From the IMG/VR virus record IMGVR_UViG_3300022309_000009, positions 1 through 50,072 of that record: a stretch of DNA of 50,072 nucleotides; one strand, 5' to 3'. Below the pieces are notes generated by a model. That model saw only the letters and a list, made by a program, of their open reading frames with translations. It ran no database searches and was not told the origin of the DNA. The DNA comes from a virus (Duplodnaviria; Caudoviricetes). Made by a program: the position numbers and the translations under genes. The first letter of the stretch is position 1, and each line of letters begins with the position of its first letter. This document shows, in pieces, positions 1,735 through 7,014 of the stretch.

Positions 1735-2001
1735 TTAGGCCCTCCTCGCGTAGGCGAGCATTCGCCCGCCGTCTGAGTAGACGCTGTTGTTGAACGTCAG
1801 CTCTTCGTTCCAGGCTGCGAGGGTTTGCTCAGCCTGCTCACGGGTGGCGAAGTACTCGCTCTCCCGACTGTAGGGGCCGCAATGGCAGAAGGTTCCGATG
1901 TACCAGCCGCCGCCGCTGCTCAAAACCTTGAATGGCAGCTTCTCGTTGCAGTCGGGGCAGGTATCACTGGCACCGCTTAGGATCGTTTCTCCTGGAAGCA
2001 T
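1735..2001 (-). CDS. Small Cys-rich (Zn-binding) hypothetical protein
   Basis: CPDC...CHCGPYSRESEYF; GGAG RBS. Confidence 0.65.
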   Translation of the reverse strand: MLPGETILSGASDTCPDCNEKLPFKVLSSGGGWYIGTFCHCGPYSRESEYFATREQAEQTLAAWNEELTFNNSVYSDGGRMLAYARRA

Positions 2002-2002
2002 C

Positions 2003-2296
2003 TCAGACTCCTCTTTCGCTTGGGTTGAAAGTGCGGTAGCCGAACTCGTCCCAGCCGGTGAGGTCTTCGAGCTGGTGCGTCAACTCGGCTCGTCGGCCTT
2101 CGAGGTAGGCCAGTTCGTTGGCGATCTCGGGCCAGCCGTGCTGGTTGAGCGACTCGGTGGCGTCGGCGATTTGCTGCTCGACGCGCTTGAGGAGATGGTT
2201 CAGCCACTTGATCTGGCATCGGCCCTGCCTCTCCTCGCAGAAGCAGCCGAGTCGGCCGGAGAGGAGGTTCTTCTCGCAGTATGTCTCGGTGGCCAA
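2003..2296 (-). CDS. Hypothetical protein
   Basis: In the minus-strand operon; AGGAG RBS near the start. Confidence 0.55.
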   Translation of the reverse strand: MATETYCEKNLLSGRLGCFCEERQGRCQIKWLNHLLKRVEQQIADATESLNQHGWPEIANELAYLEGRRAELTHQLEDLTGWDEFGYRTFNPSERGV

Positions 2297-2322
2297 GTCG
2301 AACTCCTTTCGTTGGATTTTGC

Positions 2323-2535
2323 TCAGAACTCCGTTCCTCGAAGCGTGTACGGATGGATTCGTTCCGCGATGGTTGAGGAGACGGGCGGCTGCTCTTCCAG
2401 CTTGACGGCGAGCAGCATGAGGTTGTAAAGCTCATCGACGCCGTAGGTGCGGTGGACGATCTGGACGAACTCGGTGTTGAGTCTCGCGGAGCAGCTCGCA
2501 CAACCGCAAGCGAGTGCGGGGGCTGGTAGTCTCAT
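2323..2535 (-). CDS. Hypothetical protein
   Basis: ATGA overlap with the upstream ORF; CGCASC motif. Confidence 0.5.
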   Translation of the reverse strand: MRLPAPALACGCASCSARLNTEFVQIVHRTYGVDELYNLMLLAVKLEEQPPVSSTIAERIHPYTLRGTEF

Positions 2536-2759
2536 CGGAGACTCTTCCAGAGTTTGAGATCGGCCTGCGCCTTCTTTAGCTGTACGTCGATCCGAGTGGT
2601 GGCTTCGGCGTAGTCGTAGGCCCGTTCAAGATTTCCTGCGATGCAAGCGGCTGTGATTTCTTCAACCAGCTTGGCGCGGGCGTTGCGCAGCTTCTCGATG
2701 CGGTACTGTGCGTTCCAGATACGACCGAGGACGTTTCTCTCTTGGGCAGCGGTGGACAT
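2532..2759 (-). CDS. Hypothetical helical protein
   Basis: GAGGAG RBS before ATG 2759. Confidence 0.6.
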   Translation of the reverse strand: MSTAAQERNVLGRIWNAQYRIEKLRNARAKLVEEITAACIAGNLERAYDYAEATTRIDVQLKKAQADLKLWKSLR

Positions 2760-2854
2760 CTTCTTCTCCTCTCGTTCGTTTGCCCTCGTTTCACCACCCA
2801 CCCGCTTCAGCTCTCGGTCGCCAGCCGCTCTTTCGCTGGGATTCCGAACTGAGC

Positions 2855-2891
2855 AAAAAAGGGGGACGGCAGCTTGTAGGCCACCGTCCCC
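2855..2891 (-). terminator. Intrinsic terminator
   Basis: GGGGACGG/CCGTCCCC stem with T6 tail on the minus strand, after ORF 2901-3806. Confidence 0.7.
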
Positions 2892-2900
2892 GCTGATTGG

Positions 2901-3806
2901 TCAGGCCGCGTTGGCCCAAGAAGCCTCGGGCCTTACGACGGCGTCTCGTTCGCGCCTCTTCGCCAGCCTGTACTCGATGGAGCGGCAGAGGCTCGCGAAG
3001 CCTGACAACTCGCCCTTCTCATCGACCTTCATCTTCACCCAGGCGACGACGTTCATCGTCTCGTTCGGCGTGAAGTGTCCGTTGGTCTGCGTCCACGAGA
3101 GAATCATGTCGCGGTCGCTGTAGACCTTTCGTCCGAAGTATTCCTGGAGGAGCCGGTGGAGCTTCACCTTCAAGAAGGCGGTCTGCTTGATCCGCCATTC
3201 TGCTCGCTCCTCGTCGCGACGAGTCTTTTCCTCGTTGGTCTGCTCGAACTCTGGCCCTGCGATCCAGCTCTCGTCTGAGTCGCGGAGGCTCCAAGCCAGC
3301 AGGTCGTCGTCCATCTGCTCCCGAAGCTCGACTGCGTCTTCGCTGTCGGTGTGGATCGTTCTGTGCGGCAAGTCACCAGCAGCGGGTGACGCGATGGGTG
3401 TAGGGAGAAGCGAGGCGAGAAGCTCCTGCGGCGTGAAGCTGGTCTTCTCGACGTACTCGTAGCTCGGGATGTCCCAAGCGGTTGAGCGGAAGACCACGAC
3501 TGCTGGGACGTTCCGCTCGTCAATCACTTCCGGGTCGGGAAGGAACGACGTGTCGTCCGGCGTCCACCAGCGGAACGATTTGCGCTGCGGGTCGAAGCGG
3601 AGTGCGTCTGAATCATCGAGGCTCCAGAGGTACTTCAGCTCGGTCAGTTCCTTCGTCCGAGCTGCTGCCTCAACGGCCTCAGCCTTCGCGATCCACGCCT
3701 GAACCGCTGCGTCCTTCGTGCTGCTGATTGGCCCGGCCTGCGCCATCAGCATGTCGAAGTACTCGTCGTCGCGATCTTCTGCGAACGTCGGGATTGAGAG
3801 GGTCAT
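2901..3806 (-). CDS. Hypothetical protein (301 aa)
   Basis: Long ORF with AGGAGG RBS and its own terminator; no family recognised. Confidence 0.75.
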   Translation of the reverse strand: MTLSIPTFAEDRDDEYFDMLMAQAGPISSTKDAAVQAWIAKAEAVEAAARTKELTELKYLWSLDDSDALRFDPQRKSFRWWTPDDTSFLPDPEVIDERNVPAVVVFRSTAWDIPSYEYVEKTSFTPQELLASLLPTPIASPAAGDLPHRTIHTDSEDAVELREQMDDDLLAWSLRDSDESWIAGPEFEQTNEEKTRRDEERAEWRIKQTAFLKVKLHRLLQEYFGRKVYSDRDMILSWTQTNGHFTPNETMNVVAWVKMKVDEKGELSGFASLCRSIEYRLAKRRERDAVVRPEASWANAA

Positions 3807-3835
3807 CTACGCCTCCTAACTAGTAGGAACAACAC

Positions 3836-4143
3836 CACTTCTATCCTGTAGGGGACGGCGAGCTTTCAACCTCCGTATGCCCGCTCGAAGGCGCTGGAGG
3901 AGTGAAATACAAAAGAGGGGGCGACGTCTCCTGTGTCGATCTGCTAGTCAGCTCTTCCGACTAGTAGATCGGCCATGGGGGCGTCGATAAATCCCCTCGG
4001 GTATTTCATGGGGGAGGCGTCTTCGACTCGCGGGCCAGGAGGTAGCCGCCTCTCCCCCTTTCCCGGCGTGTTTCTAGCCAAGGGGGAAAGGGGGAGAACA
4101 TAGGCGGCGGTGAAAGTCGCGCTTGTGTCCCCGGATAGAAGTG
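3836..4143 (+). ncRNA. Candidate structured ncRNA (long branched rod)
   Basis: Nested complementary segments from CACTTCTATCC/GGATAGAAGTG inward to TCGATCTGCTAGTC/GACTAGTAGATCGG; many non-Watson-Crick pairs are G-U on the + strand. Confidence 0.55.
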
Positions 4144-4648
4144 TGTGTGTGCGTGTTGATGGAGGTACTAACTAGCAACGGGGGAGCTGGCTCTATCTGC
4201 TCCCCTCCATTCCCGAGATGCTCCCTGTAGTTCGGGAGCATGGCATCTCGGGATCATCAACACTCAGTTAGTTCAGCTCTTGTTGACCAGTAGCTCAACG
4301 TATCGAGCATCTGAAGGGCGGGTGATGGGGTGGTGCGGTGAGATGGGCAGAGGGTTAGCTAGTACGTTGAGTGATGGCGTGCGTTGTGTTGATTAGACCA
4401 GCTAATGATGCTGAGTGGCTCGGGCGACGGTCTTCCCCCCCGCTCTTGTACATACCCCTGCATCACGGGGAGGCCCTTGCTCTTGATCTTGCACGAGGGG
4501 GTGGGGTATCAGATCGGCGGAGAGAAGTTGCATGGGGGTAGGGGTAGCGGGTGGTTGGTTCTTATTGCTCAGCCCCTTCAGACCGGCCATTTCAAGCCAT
4601 CCCTCGTAACTTTGGGTATCCGTAGCTGTACCCAAAGTTGCCCCGTCT

Positions 4649-4668
4649 TCCGACGCTTCCTGTAGGAT
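4649..4668 (+). promoter_or_regulatory. Phage promoter motif copy
   Basis: TCCGACG-CTTCC-TGTAGGAT upstream of ORF 4725. Confidence 0.65.
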
Positions 4669-4724
4669 ATACCTACCGGACAAGATCATCCGGACACTAG
4701 ATCCCTGAAGGGGGGTGCAACACA

Positions 4725-4988
4725 GTGGCAAAGGTAGTTGACGTCATCAACCTCTCGAACGCCGACATGGCTGCTTTCGGAGGCTCTGCGGTGACTGTCC
4801 CGGCCTATTCGCGGGTCAATGGCATCACCATCACGGACGTCGGTTTGGGGACTGCGCTTGACACGCTGAACGCCTGTGTCATCAAGTCCACGGCCAACGA
4901 GGTTCAGCAGCGGTACGCGGCCAAGATGCTCAAGCGGACTGCTCCATACCAAACTCTAGCCCCCGGCCTAAAAGACCAGGGAACCTAG
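4725..4988 (+). CDS. Small putative virion protein, paralog 1
   Basis: GAAGGGGGGTG RBS; similar to ORF 5047 (VDVIN..GG..VTVPAYS). Confidence 0.65.
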   Translation: MAKVVDVINLSNADMAAFGGSAVTVPAYSRVNGITITDVGLGTALDTLNACVIKSTANEVQQRYAAKMLKRTAPYQTLAPGLKDQGT

Positions 4989-5046
4989 ACACCATTTCGC
5001 CGGACAAGTTCATCCGGCCTCGACCTCTGAAGGGGGGTGAAACAAG

Positions 5047-5280
5047 ATGGCAAACGTTGATCTCGTGAACGGAACCGGCTCCTCAATCGTGGCAGGTGGT
5101 GAGACAGTCCCGGCGCACAGTGTTCTTTCCAACAGAACTGTGACCGGAGCAAACCTCATCCTTCTCACGGACGCCGGAGCTGTCGCCTACCTCGCTGGGA
5201 TGGCGTATGAGCAGAAGCGGCTCAGCTCCAAGATTATGAAGCTCGGCCGGAACCCAGGTACGGCAACTGTCTCGATGTAG
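5047..5280 (+). CDS. Small putative virion protein, paralog 2
   Basis: Same leader and RBS as ORF 4725; VDLVN..GGETVPAHS. Confidence 0.65.
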   Translation: MANVDLVNGTGSSIVAGGETVPAHSVLSNRTVTGANLILLTDAGAVAYLAGMAYEQKRLSSKIMKLGRNPGTATVSM

Positions 5281-5301
5281 GGGCCTCTGCTGCGCCAAGA
5301 C

Positions 5302-5323
5302 GAAGGCCCCTTACGGGGCCTTC
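5302..5323. terminator. Bidirectional terminator-like hairpin
   Basis: GAAGGCCCC-TTAC-GGGGCCTTC between convergent genes. Confidence 0.7.
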
Positions 5324-5349
5324 TGTCGTTCTAGTAGCCGGTCTTTGGC

Positions 5350-5664
5350 TTACGCGGCTTGGGGCGCTTCTTGGTCTTCGTTGCCATCGGCCTTCTCCTC
5401 TTCTGCGGCCTCGTCGGCTGCTGGATCTGCGGCCTCTTCCTCTTCGCTACCGAAGAACTCGCCCGCAAGCTCGAAAGCTTCGGACACGACGTCACTGATC
5501 TCTTCCATTGCGGCCTCGATTGCCTGGGCAGCCTCGATGACCTCGGCCACGAGGGCGTCGGTAGTGGAGCGGAGCTTCGAGCCGTCCTCGGCGATCAGCG
5601 TGCCGTCACCGAGCTTGTCAACGACGTTGACCGTGCCGTCTGCTGTATCTACTGGGAATCCCAT
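5350..5664 (-). CDS. Highly acidic hypothetical protein
   Basis: E/D/A-rich 104 aa; AAGGGGGTG RBS; own promoter motif. Confidence 0.7.
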   Translation of the reverse strand: MGFPVDTADGTVNVVDKLGDGTLIAEDGSKLRSTTDALVAEVIEAAQAIEAAMEEISDVVSEAFELAGEFFGSEEEEAADPAADEAAEEEKADGNEDQEAPQAA

Positions 5665-5699
5665 AGGAACACCCCCTTTCGCGGGAGATTCACGTCTTA

Positions 5700-5719
5700 A
5701 TCCTACATGGTGTGTAGGA
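5700..5719 (-). promoter_or_regulatory. Phage promoter motif copy
   Basis: Minus strand TCCTACA-CACCA-TGTAGGAT (perfect inverted arms). Confidence 0.75.
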
Positions 5720-5723
5720 CGTA

Positions 5724-5750
5724 GAAGAGGCCCCTCGTCGGGGCCTCTTC
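5724..5750 (-). terminator. Terminator-like hairpin
   Basis: GAAGAGGCCCC-N5-GGGGCCTCTTC downstream of ORF 5773. Confidence 0.65.
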
Positions 5751-5772
5751 CTGTTCCGGCTTATTGAGTCGG

Positions 5773-6024
5773 TTATGCCGACTCTGCCAGATCGTTTGTG
5801 TCTTCTAGCTGAACTGCGGGGAGCTGTTCGGCGGCGGTTGTGATGAACTCGACTTCGTCCATCACCACGCCCTTCAGCGTCATGCCCCGGTGATGGCGGA
5901 TCTGAGCGTCTTCCAGCGCCGTGATGGCGATGGCGAACTCTCTTGCGGCTGGGGGCGGGCAGTTGACTTTCTGCTCCGCCTGTATCTCTGCGATGAGAGC
6001 TGGTATCTGAGCGACGATGGTCAC
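5773..6024 (-). CDS. Acb2/Tad1-like helical-hairpin protein (candidate anti-defence sponge)
   Basis: CPPPAAREFAIAITALEDAQ resembles the RExxxAxTxLEEA helix of Acb2/Tad1-family proteins. Confidence 0.45.
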   Translation of the reverse strand: MTIVAQIPALIAEIQAEQKVNCPPPAAREFAIAITALEDAQIRHHRGMTLKGVVMDEVEFITTAAEQLPAVQLEDTNDLAESA

Positions 6025-6404
6025 GAGAGGTACGTCCTTTCGACGTGCTTGCGAGCTGCTCTAATGTCTCGGAGCAAGGCCCGTGTGTCCCACTCTAGGT
6101 CGTCAATCCCCTGGAGGCCGAACTCTTCGTATGTCCAGGGCCAGGATCGCACGGCCAGTTCTTCCTCGGCGATTCTCTGAATCCTGCGGCTGTAGCCCTG
6201 CTCCATACGGGCTGCCCTGAAGGCTCCGACGAGACTCACCTTCTCGATGAGAAAGTAGTTCCTCGTCGTTACCTTGGTCGTCAAGCCGTAGATGGTGGCC
6301 TCGGCTCTTGGCTTACCAGGGAGCTTGCGTGGCCTGCCCTCTTTGAGCCATTCCTCAGCGAGGCCGAGTAGATCGGCGACCTTGGCTGCTGTTCTTTTCT
6401 GCAT
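6021..6404 (-). CDS. Hypothetical protein
   Basis: 127-aa ORF, GTGA-coupled to the downstream gene. Confidence 0.6.
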   Translation of the reverse strand: MQKRTAAKVADLLGLAEEWLKEGRPRKLPGKPRAEATIYGLTTKVTTRNYFLIEKVSLVGAFRAARMEQGYSRRIQRIAEEELAVRSWPWTYEEFGLQGIDDLEWDTRALLRDIRAARKHVERTYLS

Positions 6405-6436
6405 CTGTCATCGTTCCTTTCTGGACGCATCCAGCC

Positions 6437-6880
6437 CTAGAAGGGGATGTCGTCCGAGGCCGGGGCTTCGGCCACTTGCGGGGCCGGTGTTTCTGAGGCT
6501 CCAGCGGCAAGTCGCTCGAAGCCGGACTGCGACGGAGCCTGAAACTCGAACTCCACCGCGAAGTCCTTATAGGTGTACGTGGCACCCTGGCGGCGACCGA
6601 GGAACGAGATGGTGATTGCCTCACGCTCTCGGAAGCTTTCACCGATGGCCTTGCGGTTCTGGGCCTCTTCCTTGAAGGCCCTCATCAGGACGGCGCTGTC
6701 GAGCCAGACCGAGTAGAGCTGCTGATCCTCGGCAGACTCGATTTCGGCGACGAACTTCTCGACCATCTCGTCTGTCCCGAACTTCTTGGCCTGGACGGCG
6801 TTGACGCTGACCAAGGCTCCGGAGAGGACTTCCTTGCCCTCTTCCTCGAAGTTCCAGATCGTGTACTCGCTTGTACTCAC
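6437..6880 (-). CDS. Second SSB-like (OB-fold) protein
   Basis: Beta-rich core (VLSGALVSV...ITISFLG...YKDFAVE) and acidic C-terminal tip SDDIPF. Confidence 0.65.
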   Translation of the reverse strand: MSTSEYTIWNFEEEGKEVLSGALVSVNAVQAKKFGTDEMVEKFVAEIESAEDQQLYSVWLDSAVLMRAFKEEAQNRKAIGESFREREAITISFLGRRQGATYTYKDFAVEFEFQAPSQSGFERLAAGASETPAPQVAEAPASDDIPF

Positions 6881-6900
6881 TTCTTCCTACCTTTCTGCCC

Positions 6901-7014
6901 TCAGAAGAGAGCGGTGATGGTCGCTTTCACGATTACGAATACTCCGACGAACCACGGAAGCACCAAGATGACAGCCGGGAGGCCCTTGACCGTCGTCGCG
7001 GACTTCTTATTCAT
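6901..7014 (-). CDS. Small single-TM membrane protein
   Basis: AGGCAGGA RBS; hydrophobic stretch; overlaps the upstream stop. Confidence 0.5.
   Translation of the reverse strand: MNKKSATTVKGLPAVILVLPWFVGVFVIVKATITALF

What the first reader, a model, noticed from the sequence alone, without database searches (positions are those of the whole stretch)
3836..4143. ~310-nt branched rod with strand-specific G-U pairs: candidate novel phage ncRNA
Seen: about ten nested helices, CACTTCTATCC/GGATAGAAGTG, GGGGAC/GTCCCC, GCTTTCA/TGAAAGT, ACCTCC/GGAGGT, CCCGC/GCGGG, TCGAAGGCGC/GCGTCTTCGA, GTGAAATAC/GTATTTCAT, GAGGGG/CCCCTC, CGACGTCTC/GGGGCGTCG and TCGATCTGCTAGTC/GACTAGTAGATCGG. A side arm is formed by GCCGCCT-CTCCCCCTTT/AAAGGGGGAG-AGGCGGC. 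Non-canonical pairs are repeatedly G-U on the + strand (A-C on the minus strand), implying selection on a single-stranded + strand fold. CTAACTAG direct repeats flank it (3816-3823, 4168-4175). Inference: a structured RNA such as a 6S-like polymerase decoy or protein sponge, or an ssDNA origin.
Basis: partly seen in the sequence, partly recalled or inferred. Interest (0 to 1): 0.8.

Follow-up and report, generated by a model that had tools for sequence, protein, structure and literature searches.

The report
Conserved giant hairpin heading phage early operon
An uncultured 50-kb phage and two distant relatives each carry one 310-360-base branched hairpin just upstream of their early genes, with the fold conserved but not the sequence, so it is a real and undescribed structured element whose job, and whether it acts as RNA or as folded DNA, is still open.

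Summary
Window 3836-4143 folds into the branched rod described (+ strand -190.8 kcal/mol, z -12.0; - strand -160.6, z -11.4). It is the most stable 300-nt window in the genome.

I found two homologues. One is in a metagenome contig (L013, 359 nt). The other is in a 50.3-kb IMG/VR phage (G001, 308 nt).

All three share these features:
- the terminal helix, a 4-nt bulge (TGTA or TGGA) and a second helix that covaries;
- a long arm with purine-purine bubbles (GGA/GGA, GGAGGA/GGGGGA);
- GCTCTT in an apical loop and a side hairpin on the 3' side;
- a (GT)5-6 run followed by a second hairpin.

Interior sequence identity equals that of shuffled controls.

G-U pairs favour the same strand in all three: 32 against 4. 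This stays significant after correcting for composition (p about 0.002). Z-scores, however, are equal on both strands.

The rod always lies 25-31 nt from the start codon of the first opposite-strand early gene, and that gene differs in each phage. The flanking CTAACTAG "repeat" is not conserved on the right, so it is not a duplication.

There is no Rfam match, no copy in bacterial genomes, and no recognisable promoter. RNA-library contigs were uninformative.

Best guess is a + strand non-coding RNA (0.4). A folded-DNA promoter or origin is a serious rival. The scan had noted other phage rod hairpins on other DNA, but not this family.

The parts
3836..4143 (+). The whole branched rod, 308 nt. 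It comprises terminal helix A, a 4-nt bulge, helix B, a three-way junction, a long arm and a side arm on the 3' side.
   Evidence: Folds. Homologous rods were found at L013 213-571 and at L089 3250-3557 in G001.
3836..3846 (+). Helix A, 5' strand (CACTTCTATCC). It pairs with 4133-4143 (GGATAGAAGTG). The sequence is conserved in all three copies.
   Evidence: Counting outward from the bulge, 9 of 11 positions are the same pair in all three copies. One position changes on both sides (A-T to C-G). G001 has one extra base pair inserted on both arms.
3847..3850 (+). Conserved one-sided 4-nt bulge: TGTA in the window and L013, TGGA in G001.
3851..3857 (+). Helix B, 5' strand (GGGGACG). It pairs with 4126-4132.
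   Evidence: Positions 3, 4 and 5 each change on both sides across the three copies: G-C/G-C/C-G, G-C/A-T/C-G and A-T/G-C/C-G.
3869..4043 (+). Long arm of the rod, about 175 nt and almost fully paired.
   Evidence: Its sequence is no more similar between copies than shuffled controls.
3896..3901 (+). 5' half (GGAGGA) of a symmetric purine-purine internal loop. The 3' half is GGGGGA at 4010-4015.
   Evidence: G001 has GGGGGA/GGAGGA, GGA/GGA and GGAGGA/GGGGGA loops. L013 has GGA/GGA, GGA/GCA and GAAA/AGA loops.
3950..3958 (+). Apical loop AGCTCTTCC. GCTCTT (3951-3956) occurs once per rod, and always in an apical hairpin loop.
   Evidence: The loops are AGCTCTTCC (window), CCTTTGCTCTT (L013) and GCTCTT (G001).
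4045..4110 (+). Side-arm hairpin on the 3' side of the junction.
   Evidence: Both relatives have a side hairpin at the same place, with no sequence similarity.
4141..4151 (+). (GT)5G run, starting in the last 3 bases of helix A and followed by TGTTG. Conserved in all three copies.
4153..4263 (+). Second folded domain, closed by GTGTTGATG/CATCAACAC. Each relative has a simpler hairpin at this place, starting at the conserved TGTTG.
   Evidence: I6 in L013; I1 in L089
3807..3835 (-). 29-nt spacer between the rod base and the start codon of the first leftward gene. It holds the GGAGG ribosome-binding site and a conserved CCTACTAGTTAGGAGG, and it includes the left CTAACTAG.
   Evidence: G001 reads CCTACTACTTAGGAGG with a 25-nt spacer. 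L013 has a 31-nt spacer.
2901..3806 (-). First gene of the leftward early/replication operon (P0001, 301 aa, no known domain).
4168..4175 (+). Right CTAACTAG copy. It is not conserved in the relatives and probably has no meaning.

Best explanation
The rod is a single-copy functional element that works as a folded single strand of + polarity. That is the strand antisense to the adjacent early operon.

Most likely it is a stable non-coding RNA of about 310-430 nt. On this reading the RNA is transcribed rightward, starts at or near the base of the rod, and ends after the (GU)n run and the second hairpin.

The long, almost fully paired rod would act as a rigid, nuclease-resistant scaffold. On it are displayed a conserved base module (helix A, the UGUA bulge and helix B), several purine-purine bubbles (GGA/GGA, GGAGGA/GGGGGA) and a GCUCUU apical loop. 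These would be binding sites for a protein or the ribosome. The RNA would therefore be a decoy, sponge or scaffold made at the switch point between early leftward and rightward transcription.

What is shown:
- the fold, and its conservation with compensatory changes;
- the strand bias of wobble pairs;
- the conserved loop and bulge motifs;
- the fixed position next to the early operon.

What is inferred:
- that the molecule is RNA;
- where it starts and ends;
- that its unpaired motifs bind a partner.
For: **Three independent copies fold far better than shuffles.** On the window-sense strand the z-scores are -12.0, -11.5 and -9.0.

**Structure is conserved and sequence is not.** Interior identity is 0.53, 0.62 and 0.57, against shuffled means of 0.53, 0.59 and 0.54. 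Helix B has three positions that change on both sides. Helix A has one such position and one base pair inserted on both arms.

**Wobble pairs favour the same strand in all three copies.** The counts are 11/2, 12/2 and 9/0, giving 32 against 4. The binomial p is 2e-6 against a 0.5 null. It is 0.002-0.003 against nulls set by the composition of the unpaired or flanking bases.

**Unpaired motifs are conserved on that strand.** These are the 4-nt bulge, GCTCTT in an apical loop in 3 of 3 rods, and symmetric purine loops in 3 of 3 rods.

**It is not a mobile or host repeat.** There is one copy per genome. None of the 19 bacterial-genome pattern hits is a rod.

**Prior knowledge (recalled).** Large conserved folds in tailed double-stranded-DNA phages have so far nearly always proved to be RNAs.
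Against: - No promoter was recognised on either strand in 3600-4800: 0 sigma-70-like sites against 0.4 expected. By eye there is no TANNNT -10 element in the 29-nt left flank.
- No intrinsic terminator follows the rod.
- Z-scores are equal on the two strands, because the + strand is G/T-rich. Part of the wobble-pair bias could therefore come from a region-wide composition skew.
- The rod sits at a fixed 25-31 nt from an opposite-strand start codon. A trans-acting RNA gene does not need that, and it hints at a role in cis on the early operon.
- The adjacent alternating (GT)n run is a classic feature of DNA structure.
- Contigs from RNA libraries show no excess depth over the rod. They cannot measure abundance or strand.
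Confidence: 0.4

Rival explanations
1. Folded + strand DNA acts as a hairpin promoter or entry site for the early operon. The + strand is the template for the leftward genes, which include P0001, a DprA-like gene and an SSB gene. A hairpin extruded from supercoiled DNA, or formed on single-stranded DNA, would be recognised by RNA polymerase. Transcription would then run out of the rod base into the 25-31-nt leader. This is the logic of the Frpo/ssi single-stranded promoters of conjugative plasmids and of the template-strand hairpin promoters of phage N4.
For: - The strand with the wobble-pair bias is the template strand of the adjacent operon in 3 of 3 phages.
- The rod base keeps a fixed distance to the start codon although the first gene differs: P0001, a DUF4326 gene, or a 51-aa ORF.
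- The spacer sequence is conserved.
- No ordinary promoter is found for an operon that must have one.
- The operon encodes SSB. Frpo elements sit upstream of ssb and are stimulated by SSB (passages of PMC11541004 read).
- The size of 308-359 nt lies within the 50-350-bp range of regulatory regions screened for Frpo in that paper.
- The (GT)n run beside the palindrome would, like a cruciform, absorb negative supercoils.
Against: - No -35 or -10 boxes with proper spacing lie in the stem near the base (and reading).
- A tailed phage injects double-stranded DNA, so a single-stranded promoter has no obvious occasion to form.
- No phage RNA polymerase was found in the proteins scanned. The 2354-aa virion protein matches no polymerase family and no solved structure.
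- One RNA-library contig (3637-3868) bridges the proposed start site. This is weak, because it may be DNA carry-over.
Confidence: 0.2
2. The element is a replication origin or strand-specific priming site. The + strand would fold when it is exposed as single-stranded DNA, either as lagging-strand template or as displaced strand. The fold would then be recognised by the phage DnaB-like helicase-primase or a host primase, as in single-strand origins and the minus-strand origins of filamentous phages.
For: - The fold is strand-biased.
- A conserved base module plus a conserved apical-loop hexamer, with a diverged interior, is the layout of ssoA-type origins (recalled).
- It lies at the head of the replication gene block, which includes SSB, a DprA-like gene and a DnaB-like helicase.
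- Cumulative GC skew rises monotonically. The + strand is therefore G/T-rich throughout, as expected if it is regularly single-stranded.
Against: - There are no iterons and no AT-rich unwinding region in 3700-4750. Only 12 two-copy direct-repeat families of 9-15 nt were found.
- The loops carry GCTCTT, not the TAGCGT-type motif of ssoA (the ssoA motif is recalled).
- No rolling-circle Rep was seen among the proteins scanned.
- A phage with its own primase-helicase does not need a dedicated priming hairpin.
Confidence: 0.12
3. The rod is the - strand 5' leader of the early operon. A promoter further right would transcribe the C-rich leader, hairpin 2, (AC)n and the rod. The rod would then act in cis as a 5' stabiliser, an RNase III site, an antiterminator (like HK022 put) or a translational control element just upstream of the ribosome-binding site.
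For: - The spacing to the ribosome-binding site is fixed and conserved, whichever gene follows.
- The - strand still folds at -159 to -164 kcal/mol, with z from -9.7 to -11.4.
- On the - strand the region 4300-4400 and 4494-4575 is C-rich and G-poor, like a Rho loading site. The second of these tracts is conserved in G001.
- One RNA-library contig runs from the gene into the rod.
Against: - On the - strand, 32 positions are A-C mismatches where the + strand has G-U. Only 4 positions go the other way. That is the opposite of what selection on a - strand RNA fold would leave.
- No promoter was recognised to the right of the rod either.
Confidence: 0.12
4. The rod is a double-stranded-DNA palindrome. 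It would work as an operator array, a cruciform or a supercoil sink between divergent transcription units, and be read by a dimeric DNA-binding protein, with no single-stranded function.
For: - It lies in the roughly 850-nt non-coding gap between the leftward early operon and the rightward promoter at 4649.
- Z-scores are equal on both strands.
- An alternating (GT)n run lies next to it.
- The ends are conserved in sequence.
Against: - A duplex-level function predicts no wobble-pair bias between strands. 32 against 4 is observed.
- The one-sided 4-nt bulge, the side arm and the purine-purine bubbles are asymmetries that a palindromic protein site does not need.
- Keeping 300 bp of compensated pairing with a free interior sequence is hard to explain by duplex binding.
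Confidence: 0.08
5. The rod is a mobile or selfish foldback element (MITE-like), inserted with a CTAACTAG duplication.
For: It has terminal inverted repeats, and an 8-mer occurs on both sides.
Against: - There is a single copy in the genome.
- The 8-mers lie 12 and 24 nt away from the inverted repeat.
- The right copy is absent from both relatives, while the rod sits at the same place in all three.
- The end pattern found no rod in 185,579 species' genomes: 19 hits, 0 rods. In IMG/VR it found only G001.
Confidence: 0.02

Closest known systems
Frpo / ssi single-stranded DNA promoters of conjugative plasmids (Masai and Arai 1997, recalled; passages of PMC11541004 read)
   Same: Both are long imperfect hairpins of about 300 nt that fold on one strand only. 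Both sit directly upstream of an operon that includes an SSB gene. In both, the folded strand is the template of that operon.
   Different: No -35, -10 or UP boxes are seen in the stem. The element lies in a tailed phage, which should inject duplex DNA. Sequence similarity to known Frpo could not be tested, because no Frpo sequence was at hand.
phi29 packaging RNA (pRNA)
   Same: Both are phage-encoded and have a paired 5'/3' terminal helix, a three-way junction and bulges. In both the fold is conserved while the sequence is almost free.
   Different: The rod is two to three times longer. No Rfam pRNA match was found. No interlocking loop pair was identified. The phage type is unrelated: terminase-based packaging and a 50-kb genome.
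6S RNA
   Same: Both have a rod shape with conserved structure and weak sequence conservation. Both are proposed to act as decoys.
   Different: No 6S model matches. There is no large central open-promoter bubble in the window copy, whose largest loop is 6x6. The rod is much longer and has a side arm.
ssoA-type single-strand origins and Ff phage minus-strand origin
   Same: Both are strand-specific imperfect palindromes with a conserved base region and a conserved apical-loop hexamer.
   Different: The loop motif is GCTCTT, not TAGCGT. No rolling-circle replication genes were found. The host replicon is a 50-kb double-stranded-DNA phage.
CsrB/RsmZ-type protein-sponge RNAs
   Same: Both carry several unpaired GGA motifs on a structured RNA: 3 in the window, 3 in L013 and 8 in G001 by my count.
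   Different: The GGA motifs lie in symmetric internal loops, not in hairpin loops. No Rfam match was found. The host is unknown, so it is not known whether it has CsrA.
RNase III processing hairpins and 5' stabilisers of T7-group and SP82 phages (recalled)
   Same: Both are long imperfect hairpins in phage non-coding gaps next to early genes.
   Different: Those hairpins are 40-80 nt and lie on the sense strand of the mRNA. Here the favoured strand is antisense to the adjacent gene, and the rod is 308-359 nt.

Membership tests
Any Rfam 15 family (including 6S, pRNA, GOLLD, ROOL, HEARO, CsrB/Rsm) | Covariance-model match at or near the gathering score | tested here: not met
   searched window 3000-5500 at E up to 10 and gave 8 weak matches. 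The best was mir-4716 at 24.9 bits, against a gathering score of 76. One search searched L013 and L089 at E up to 1 and gave 3 matches, none on a rod.
6S RNA | Large central bubble that mimics an open promoter, flanked by closing and terminal stems | tested here: not met
   The largest internal loop in the window copy is GGAGGA/GGGGGA (6x6). G001 has three purine loops in a row (6x6, 3x3, 6x6), which is nearer to a bubble but still not the 6S layout.
6S RNA | Binds the sigma-70 holoenzyme and templates product RNA | not testable with these tools
   This needs biochemistry.
Frpo/ssi single-stranded DNA promoter | The folded strand is the template of the genes immediately downstream | tested here: met
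   The strand with the wobble-pair bias is the template of the adjacent operon in 3 of 3 phages.
Frpo/ssi single-stranded DNA promoter | -35, -10 (and UP) elements formed within the stem with proper spacing | tested here: not met
   One search found 0 promoter-like sites in 3600-4800. Reading both arms near the base in all three copies shows no shared TTGACA/TATAAT-like or TANNNT pair. The host's consensus is unknown, so this counts only against the E. coli and actinobacterial types.
Frpo/ssi single-stranded DNA promoter | The element enters or exists in the cell as single-stranded DNA | not testable with these tools
   The genome encodes portal, major capsid and terminase proteins. It is therefore expected to be injected as duplex DNA.
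ssoA-type single-strand origin | Conserved CS-6 (TAGCGT-like) hexamer in the terminal loop and an RSB element at the base (both motifs recalled) | tested here: not met
   The apical loops carry GCTCTT, and no TAGCG is present in any loop.
phi29 pRNA | 120-174 nt, with a three-way junction and two loops that pair between molecules | tested here: not met
   The length is 308-359 nt. A three-way junction is present. By eye, no complementary loop pair appears among the hairpin loops listed.
MITE / foldback transposon | Many dispersed copies, with terminal inverted repeats flanked directly by a target-site duplication | tested here: not met
   There is one copy per genome. The 8-mers are 12 and 24 nt from the repeat, and the right one is not conserved. 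None of the 19 genome hits is a rod.
VIPR vrRNA (bioRxiv 10.64898/2026.04.26.720920) | 9-16 tandem YNNGG repeats followed by a structured tail | tested here: not met
   One search found 0 matches to five tandem GGYNN units in the window, allowing up to 1 mismatch.
Protelomerase target (telRL) or hairpin telomere | Perfect or near-perfect dyad of about 50 bp, together with a protelomerase gene | tested here: inconclusive
   The palindrome is imperfect and branched, with a one-sided bulge. No protelomerase appeared among the proteins scanned, but not every ORF was scanned.

The most novel reading that the evidence does not exclude
A tailed double-stranded-DNA phage drives its whole early/replication operon (including SSB and a DprA-like gene) from a giant hairpin of about 310 nt, formed by the template strand itself. 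This would be a phage counterpart of the plasmid Frpo single-stranded promoters and of the tiny hairpin promoters of phage N4. The adjacent (GT)n run and supercoiling, or exposure of single-stranded DNA, would set when the hairpin forms. Early gene expression would then be switched by DNA topology or by single-stranded DNA, and not by a conventional promoter.
Probability: 0.2. Interest if true: 0.85.

Novelty: new variant of a known kind. Interest (0 to 1): 0.6.

Why it matters
Long DNA palindromes are a liability for a replicating genome. Host nucleases that cut hairpins select against them (recalled). Keeping a compensated palindrome of 308-359 nt in three phages, whose neighbouring protein is only 37-57% identical, therefore implies strong selection.

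The element sits at the control point where the early/replication operon begins, and no ordinary promoter is visible there.

- If it is an RNA, it is a large new class of phage non-coding RNA. Its conserved protein-binding-type bubbles make it a candidate decoy or scaffold used in host take-over.
- If it is folded DNA, it would extend hairpin or single-stranded promoters or origins to tailed phages.

Either outcome can be tested with one stranded transcript map and one in vitro transcription experiment.

Tried and rejected
**Searches for relatives that found nothing**
- blastn of 3700-4400 against 50,697 phage records gave no match.
- The exact 37-nt apex pattern gave 0 hits in IMG/VR.
- A 3'-end pattern gave 0 hits in IMG/VR.
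- A 5'-end pattern gave 4 hits in IMG/VR. All four were folded and none is a rod.
- P0001 alone and the six-protein alignment A1 found no relative in IMG/VR.
- A1 found none in the genome collection.
- Eleven IMG/VR loci with DprA-like relatives (36-52% identity) were scanned in 300-nt windows, and none has a comparable rod.
- A refined end pattern found only G001 in IMG/VR. It gave 19 chance hits in genomes, with 0 rods.

**Contexts I could not fetch**
The contigs of P0002, P0003, P0005 and P0006 could therefore not be fetched. These are the closest relatives, at up to 76% identity.

**RNA evidence**
- Three metatranscriptome runs (X4-X6, two studies) hold Logan contigs over parts of 2000-7000, including parts of the rod (3637-3868, 3949-4133, 4136-4287).
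- Depth is low and even, at about 2-6.
- Contigs give no strand and no ends, and DNA carry-over cannot be excluded.
- I draw no conclusion from this data for or against transcription.

**The neighbouring protein P0001**
- It has no Pfam or PHROG family.
- The AlphaFold2 model from the six-sequence alignment has mean pLDDT 51.9. It was not taken to a fold search.
- ESM Atlas gave no hit of 0.9 or more.

**Other ideas tested and dropped**
- A phage RNA polymerase that might read a hairpin: none was found in the proteins scanned.
- Iterons or an AT-rich origin core: none found.
- A link to the phage's 13-copy promoter GTCCTAC-N6-TGTAGGAT. The rod's CCTGTAGG resembles the promoter's right half, and TCCTGTAGG is shared with the 4649 promoter. 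G001 reads TGGAGG at this place, so the resemblance is not conserved.
- Extension of the structured domain: 4144-4404 as a whole is not exceptional, with z -1.1 on the + strand and -2.5 on the - strand.
- VIPR vrRNA: no GGYNN array.
- A covariance model of the whole rod was not attempted.
- The MAFFT three-way alignment misregisters the 3' end of G001. Pair counts were therefore made by script from the bulge anchor.

**Literature**
- Two full-text searches listed nothing that describes this element.
- Supplementary files of PMC11541004, which hold the Frpo sequences, were not opened.
Full report
**What the window is**

The 50,072-base window is a whole IMG/VR virus record. It is a tailed phage of 59% G+C.

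- Structural and lysis genes lie on the + strand from about 7.3 to 30 kb: portal, major head protein and endolysin.
- Replication genes lie on the - strand: a DnaB-like helicase, an SNF2 helicase, SSB and a DprA-like gene.
- Its capsid protein is only 25-29% identical to that of cultured podophages of Proteobacteria.
- A DNA assembly from another run breaks the circle at a different place. The record's ends are therefore arbitrary.

**The observation**

All the listed helices and the side arm are in the minimum-energy or centroid fold.

| Strand | MFE (kcal/mol) | z vs 100 shuffles |
|---|---|---|
| + | -190.8 | -12.0 |
| - | -160.6 | -11.4 |

It is the most stable 300-nt window in the genome: -168.5, against a mean of -115.4 (sd 10.7).

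The + fold has 11 G-U pairs. All 11 become A-C mismatches on the other strand, and only 2 positions go the other way.

With DNA parameters the order is the same: -97.3 against -85.5.

**Setting**

A codon-usage and GC3 check shows that 4400-4700 is non-coding. Real + strand genes start at 4725, behind a phage-type promoter at about 4649.

The rod therefore lies at the left edge of a non-coding gap of about 850 nt. It is 29 nt from the start codon of P0001 (2901-3806, - strand). P0001 is the first gene of the leftward operon that continues into the DprA-like and SSB genes.

No sigma-70-like promoter is predicted anywhere in 3600-4800. No iterons are present.

**Relatives**

P0001 has only five relatives among 5.8 billion proteins.

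*First relative, L013.* A scan of JGI metagenomes with the protein alignment gave L013, 1830 nt, with a P0001 homologue at 57% identity. Upstream of that gene, on the corresponding strand, lies a 359-nt rod.

*Second relative, G001.* A scan of IMG/VR for the phage's own promoter motif (GTCCTAC-N6-TGTAGGAT) gave 70 loci. Only one contig was hit twice, a 50,318-base record called G001. G001 encodes a P0001-like protein: 37% identity over residues 176-284, E = 1e-21. It carries a 308-nt rod at L089 3250-3557.

| Copy | Length (nt) | Window-sense strand: MFE, z | Other strand: MFE, z |
|---|---|---|---|
| Window | 308 | -190.8, -12.0 | -160.6, -11.4 |
| L013 | 359 | -184.4, -11.5 | -164.1, -9.7 |
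| G001 | 308 | -180.2, -9.0 | -159.1, -10.2 |

**Shared anatomy**

All three rods have the following.

- **Helix A**, the terminal helix, with conserved sequence: CAC(G)TTCTNNCC pairing with GGNNAGAA(C)GTG.
- **A one-sided 4-nt bulge**: TGTA, TGTA and TGGA.
- **Helix B**, with three positions changed on both sides.
- **A three-way junction.** The long arm comes first, and a side hairpin lies on the 3' side.
- **Symmetric purine-purine internal loops** in the long arm: GGAGGA/GGGGGA or GGA/GGA.
- **GCTCTT exactly once per rod**, always in an apical loop.
- **A (GT)5-6 run** directly after the rod.
- **A second hairpin** that begins at a conserved TGTTG.

In helix A, one position changes on both sides, and G001 has a base pair inserted on both arms.

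The interiors are no more alike than shuffled sequences. Identities are 0.53, 0.62 and 0.57, against shuffled means of 0.53, 0.59 and 0.54. The structure is conserved, and the interior sequence is not.

**Strand**

| Copy | G-U pairs, window-sense strand | G-U pairs, other strand |
|---|---|---|
| Window | 11 | 2 |
| L013 | 12 | 2 |
| G001 | 9 | 0 |
| Total | 32 | 4 |

The + strand is G/T-rich, so I corrected the null. I used the composition of the unpaired bases of the rods, or of the flanking gap. The expected share of G-T is then 0.67, and the excess remains (p = 0.002-0.003).

With the genome-wide composition the expected share is 0.60 and p = 1e-4.

This argues for selection on a single + strand fold and against a purely duplex function.

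It is not proof. Z-scores against composition-matched shuffles are the same on both strands. The window copy alone is not significant after correction (11 of 13, p = 0.14).

**Position**

In all three phages the rod base lies 25-31 nt from the start codon of the first gene on the opposite strand. A conserved spacer fills the interval: CCTACTAGTTAGGAGG in the window and CCTACTACTTAGGAGG in G001.

The first gene differs in each phage:
- P0001 in the window;
- a DUF4326 gene in L013;
- a 51-aa ORF in G001.

The rod and spacer therefore behave as one cassette at the head of the early operon.

The left CTAACTAG of the finding is part of this spacer. The right one is absent from both relatives, so the "flanking direct repeat" has no meaning.

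**What it is not**

- No Rfam 15 family matches any of the three copies.
- It is single-copy and absent from the bacterial genome collection by its end pattern. It is therefore not a mobile repeat.
- It is not a VIPR-type repeat RNA.
- No phage RNA polymerase was found in the proteins scanned.

**Interpretation**

Three facts have to be reconciled:
- (i) the + strand is the favoured fold;
- (ii) the element is tied in position to an operon on the other strand;
- (iii) no promoter is recognisable.

*Non-coding + strand RNA (0.4).* It would start at the rod base. This fits (i), the conserved unpaired motifs, and the prior that large conserved folds in tailed phages are RNAs. It explains (ii) only through promoter overlap.

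*Template-strand hairpin promoter (0.2).* The logic is that of Frpo (passages of PMC11541004) or N4. It explains (i), (ii) and (iii) together. It lacks promoter boxes, and it lacks an obvious source of single-stranded DNA.

*The remaining readings.* An origin or priming site (0.12), a - strand leader (0.12, contradicted by the wobble bias) and a duplex palindrome (0.08) remain possible.

RNA-library contigs cover the region but give no strand, ends or level. They decide nothing.

**Verdict**

This is a real, conserved and undescribed structured element. It has three members so far. Its strand is probably assigned, but its chemistry (RNA or DNA) and its function are open.

Earlier notes of this scan describe other rod-shaped hairpin families in other phages. 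A look-up by sequence found this family only in this window.

Noticed in passing
window 4649-38696 (14 sites); L054, L084, L090 in G001: The phage's quasi-palindromic promoter GTCCTAC-N6-TGTAGGAT sits 7-9 nt before leaderless start codons. It is shared by the distant relative G001: 2 exact copies and one variant in L090. It therefore marks a phage clade with a common transcription system. No RNA polymerase or sigma gene was identified.
   Followed up: partly
window 4300-4400 and 4494-4575: These are G-rich, C-poor tracts on the + strand, and so C-rich and G-poor on the - strand. The second tract, around GGGGGTAGGGGTAGCGGGTGG, aligns with a similar tract in G001. They could be G-quadruplex or R-loop formers on the + strand, or Rho loading sites on a - strand leader.
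   Followed up: no
window 4653-4668: Contigs from three RNA libraries (two studies) all stop here: 4263-4668, 4297-4653 and 4422-4660. The stop is just after the perfect inverted repeat at 4608-4639 and at the 4649 promoter, while the DNA contig runs on. This is a weak hint of a transcript boundary.
   Followed up: no
window 4721-4995: Contigs in two RNA-library runs join 4721 to 4995, skipping 273 nt. That is almost exactly ORF 4725-4988. The shorter side of the joint is only 23 nt. It is probably a strain that lacks this small gene.
   Followed up: no
window 6458-6467: The RNA-library contigs carry three different 24-nt insertions here. This suggests a variable tandem repeat inside the - strand gene 6437-6880.
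   Followed up: no
L089 1897-1968 (- strand of the locus): G001 has a tRNA gene (64.1 bits) about 1.3 kb from the rod, on the rod's favoured strand. The window itself has no tRNA.
   Followed up: no
L089 3735-3998 and L088 1-546: The P0001-like gene of G001 is split across the two ends of the 50,318-base record. The 3'-open ORF is at the end and the 5'-open ORF at the start. The record is therefore probably a complete, circularly closing genome, although it is rated 53% complete.
   Followed up: partly
L013 602-916: A DUF4326 gene (E = 1.6e-19) lies between the rod and the P0001 homologue. This shows that genes are swapped in and out directly behind the rod-and-spacer cassette.
   Followed up: partly
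L002/L003 around 4501 and 3376: Two near-identical IMG/VR loci with DprA-like genes have unusually stable 300-nt windows: -134.7 and -128.8, against a mean of -88.1 (sd 15.2). They were not examined.
   Followed up: no
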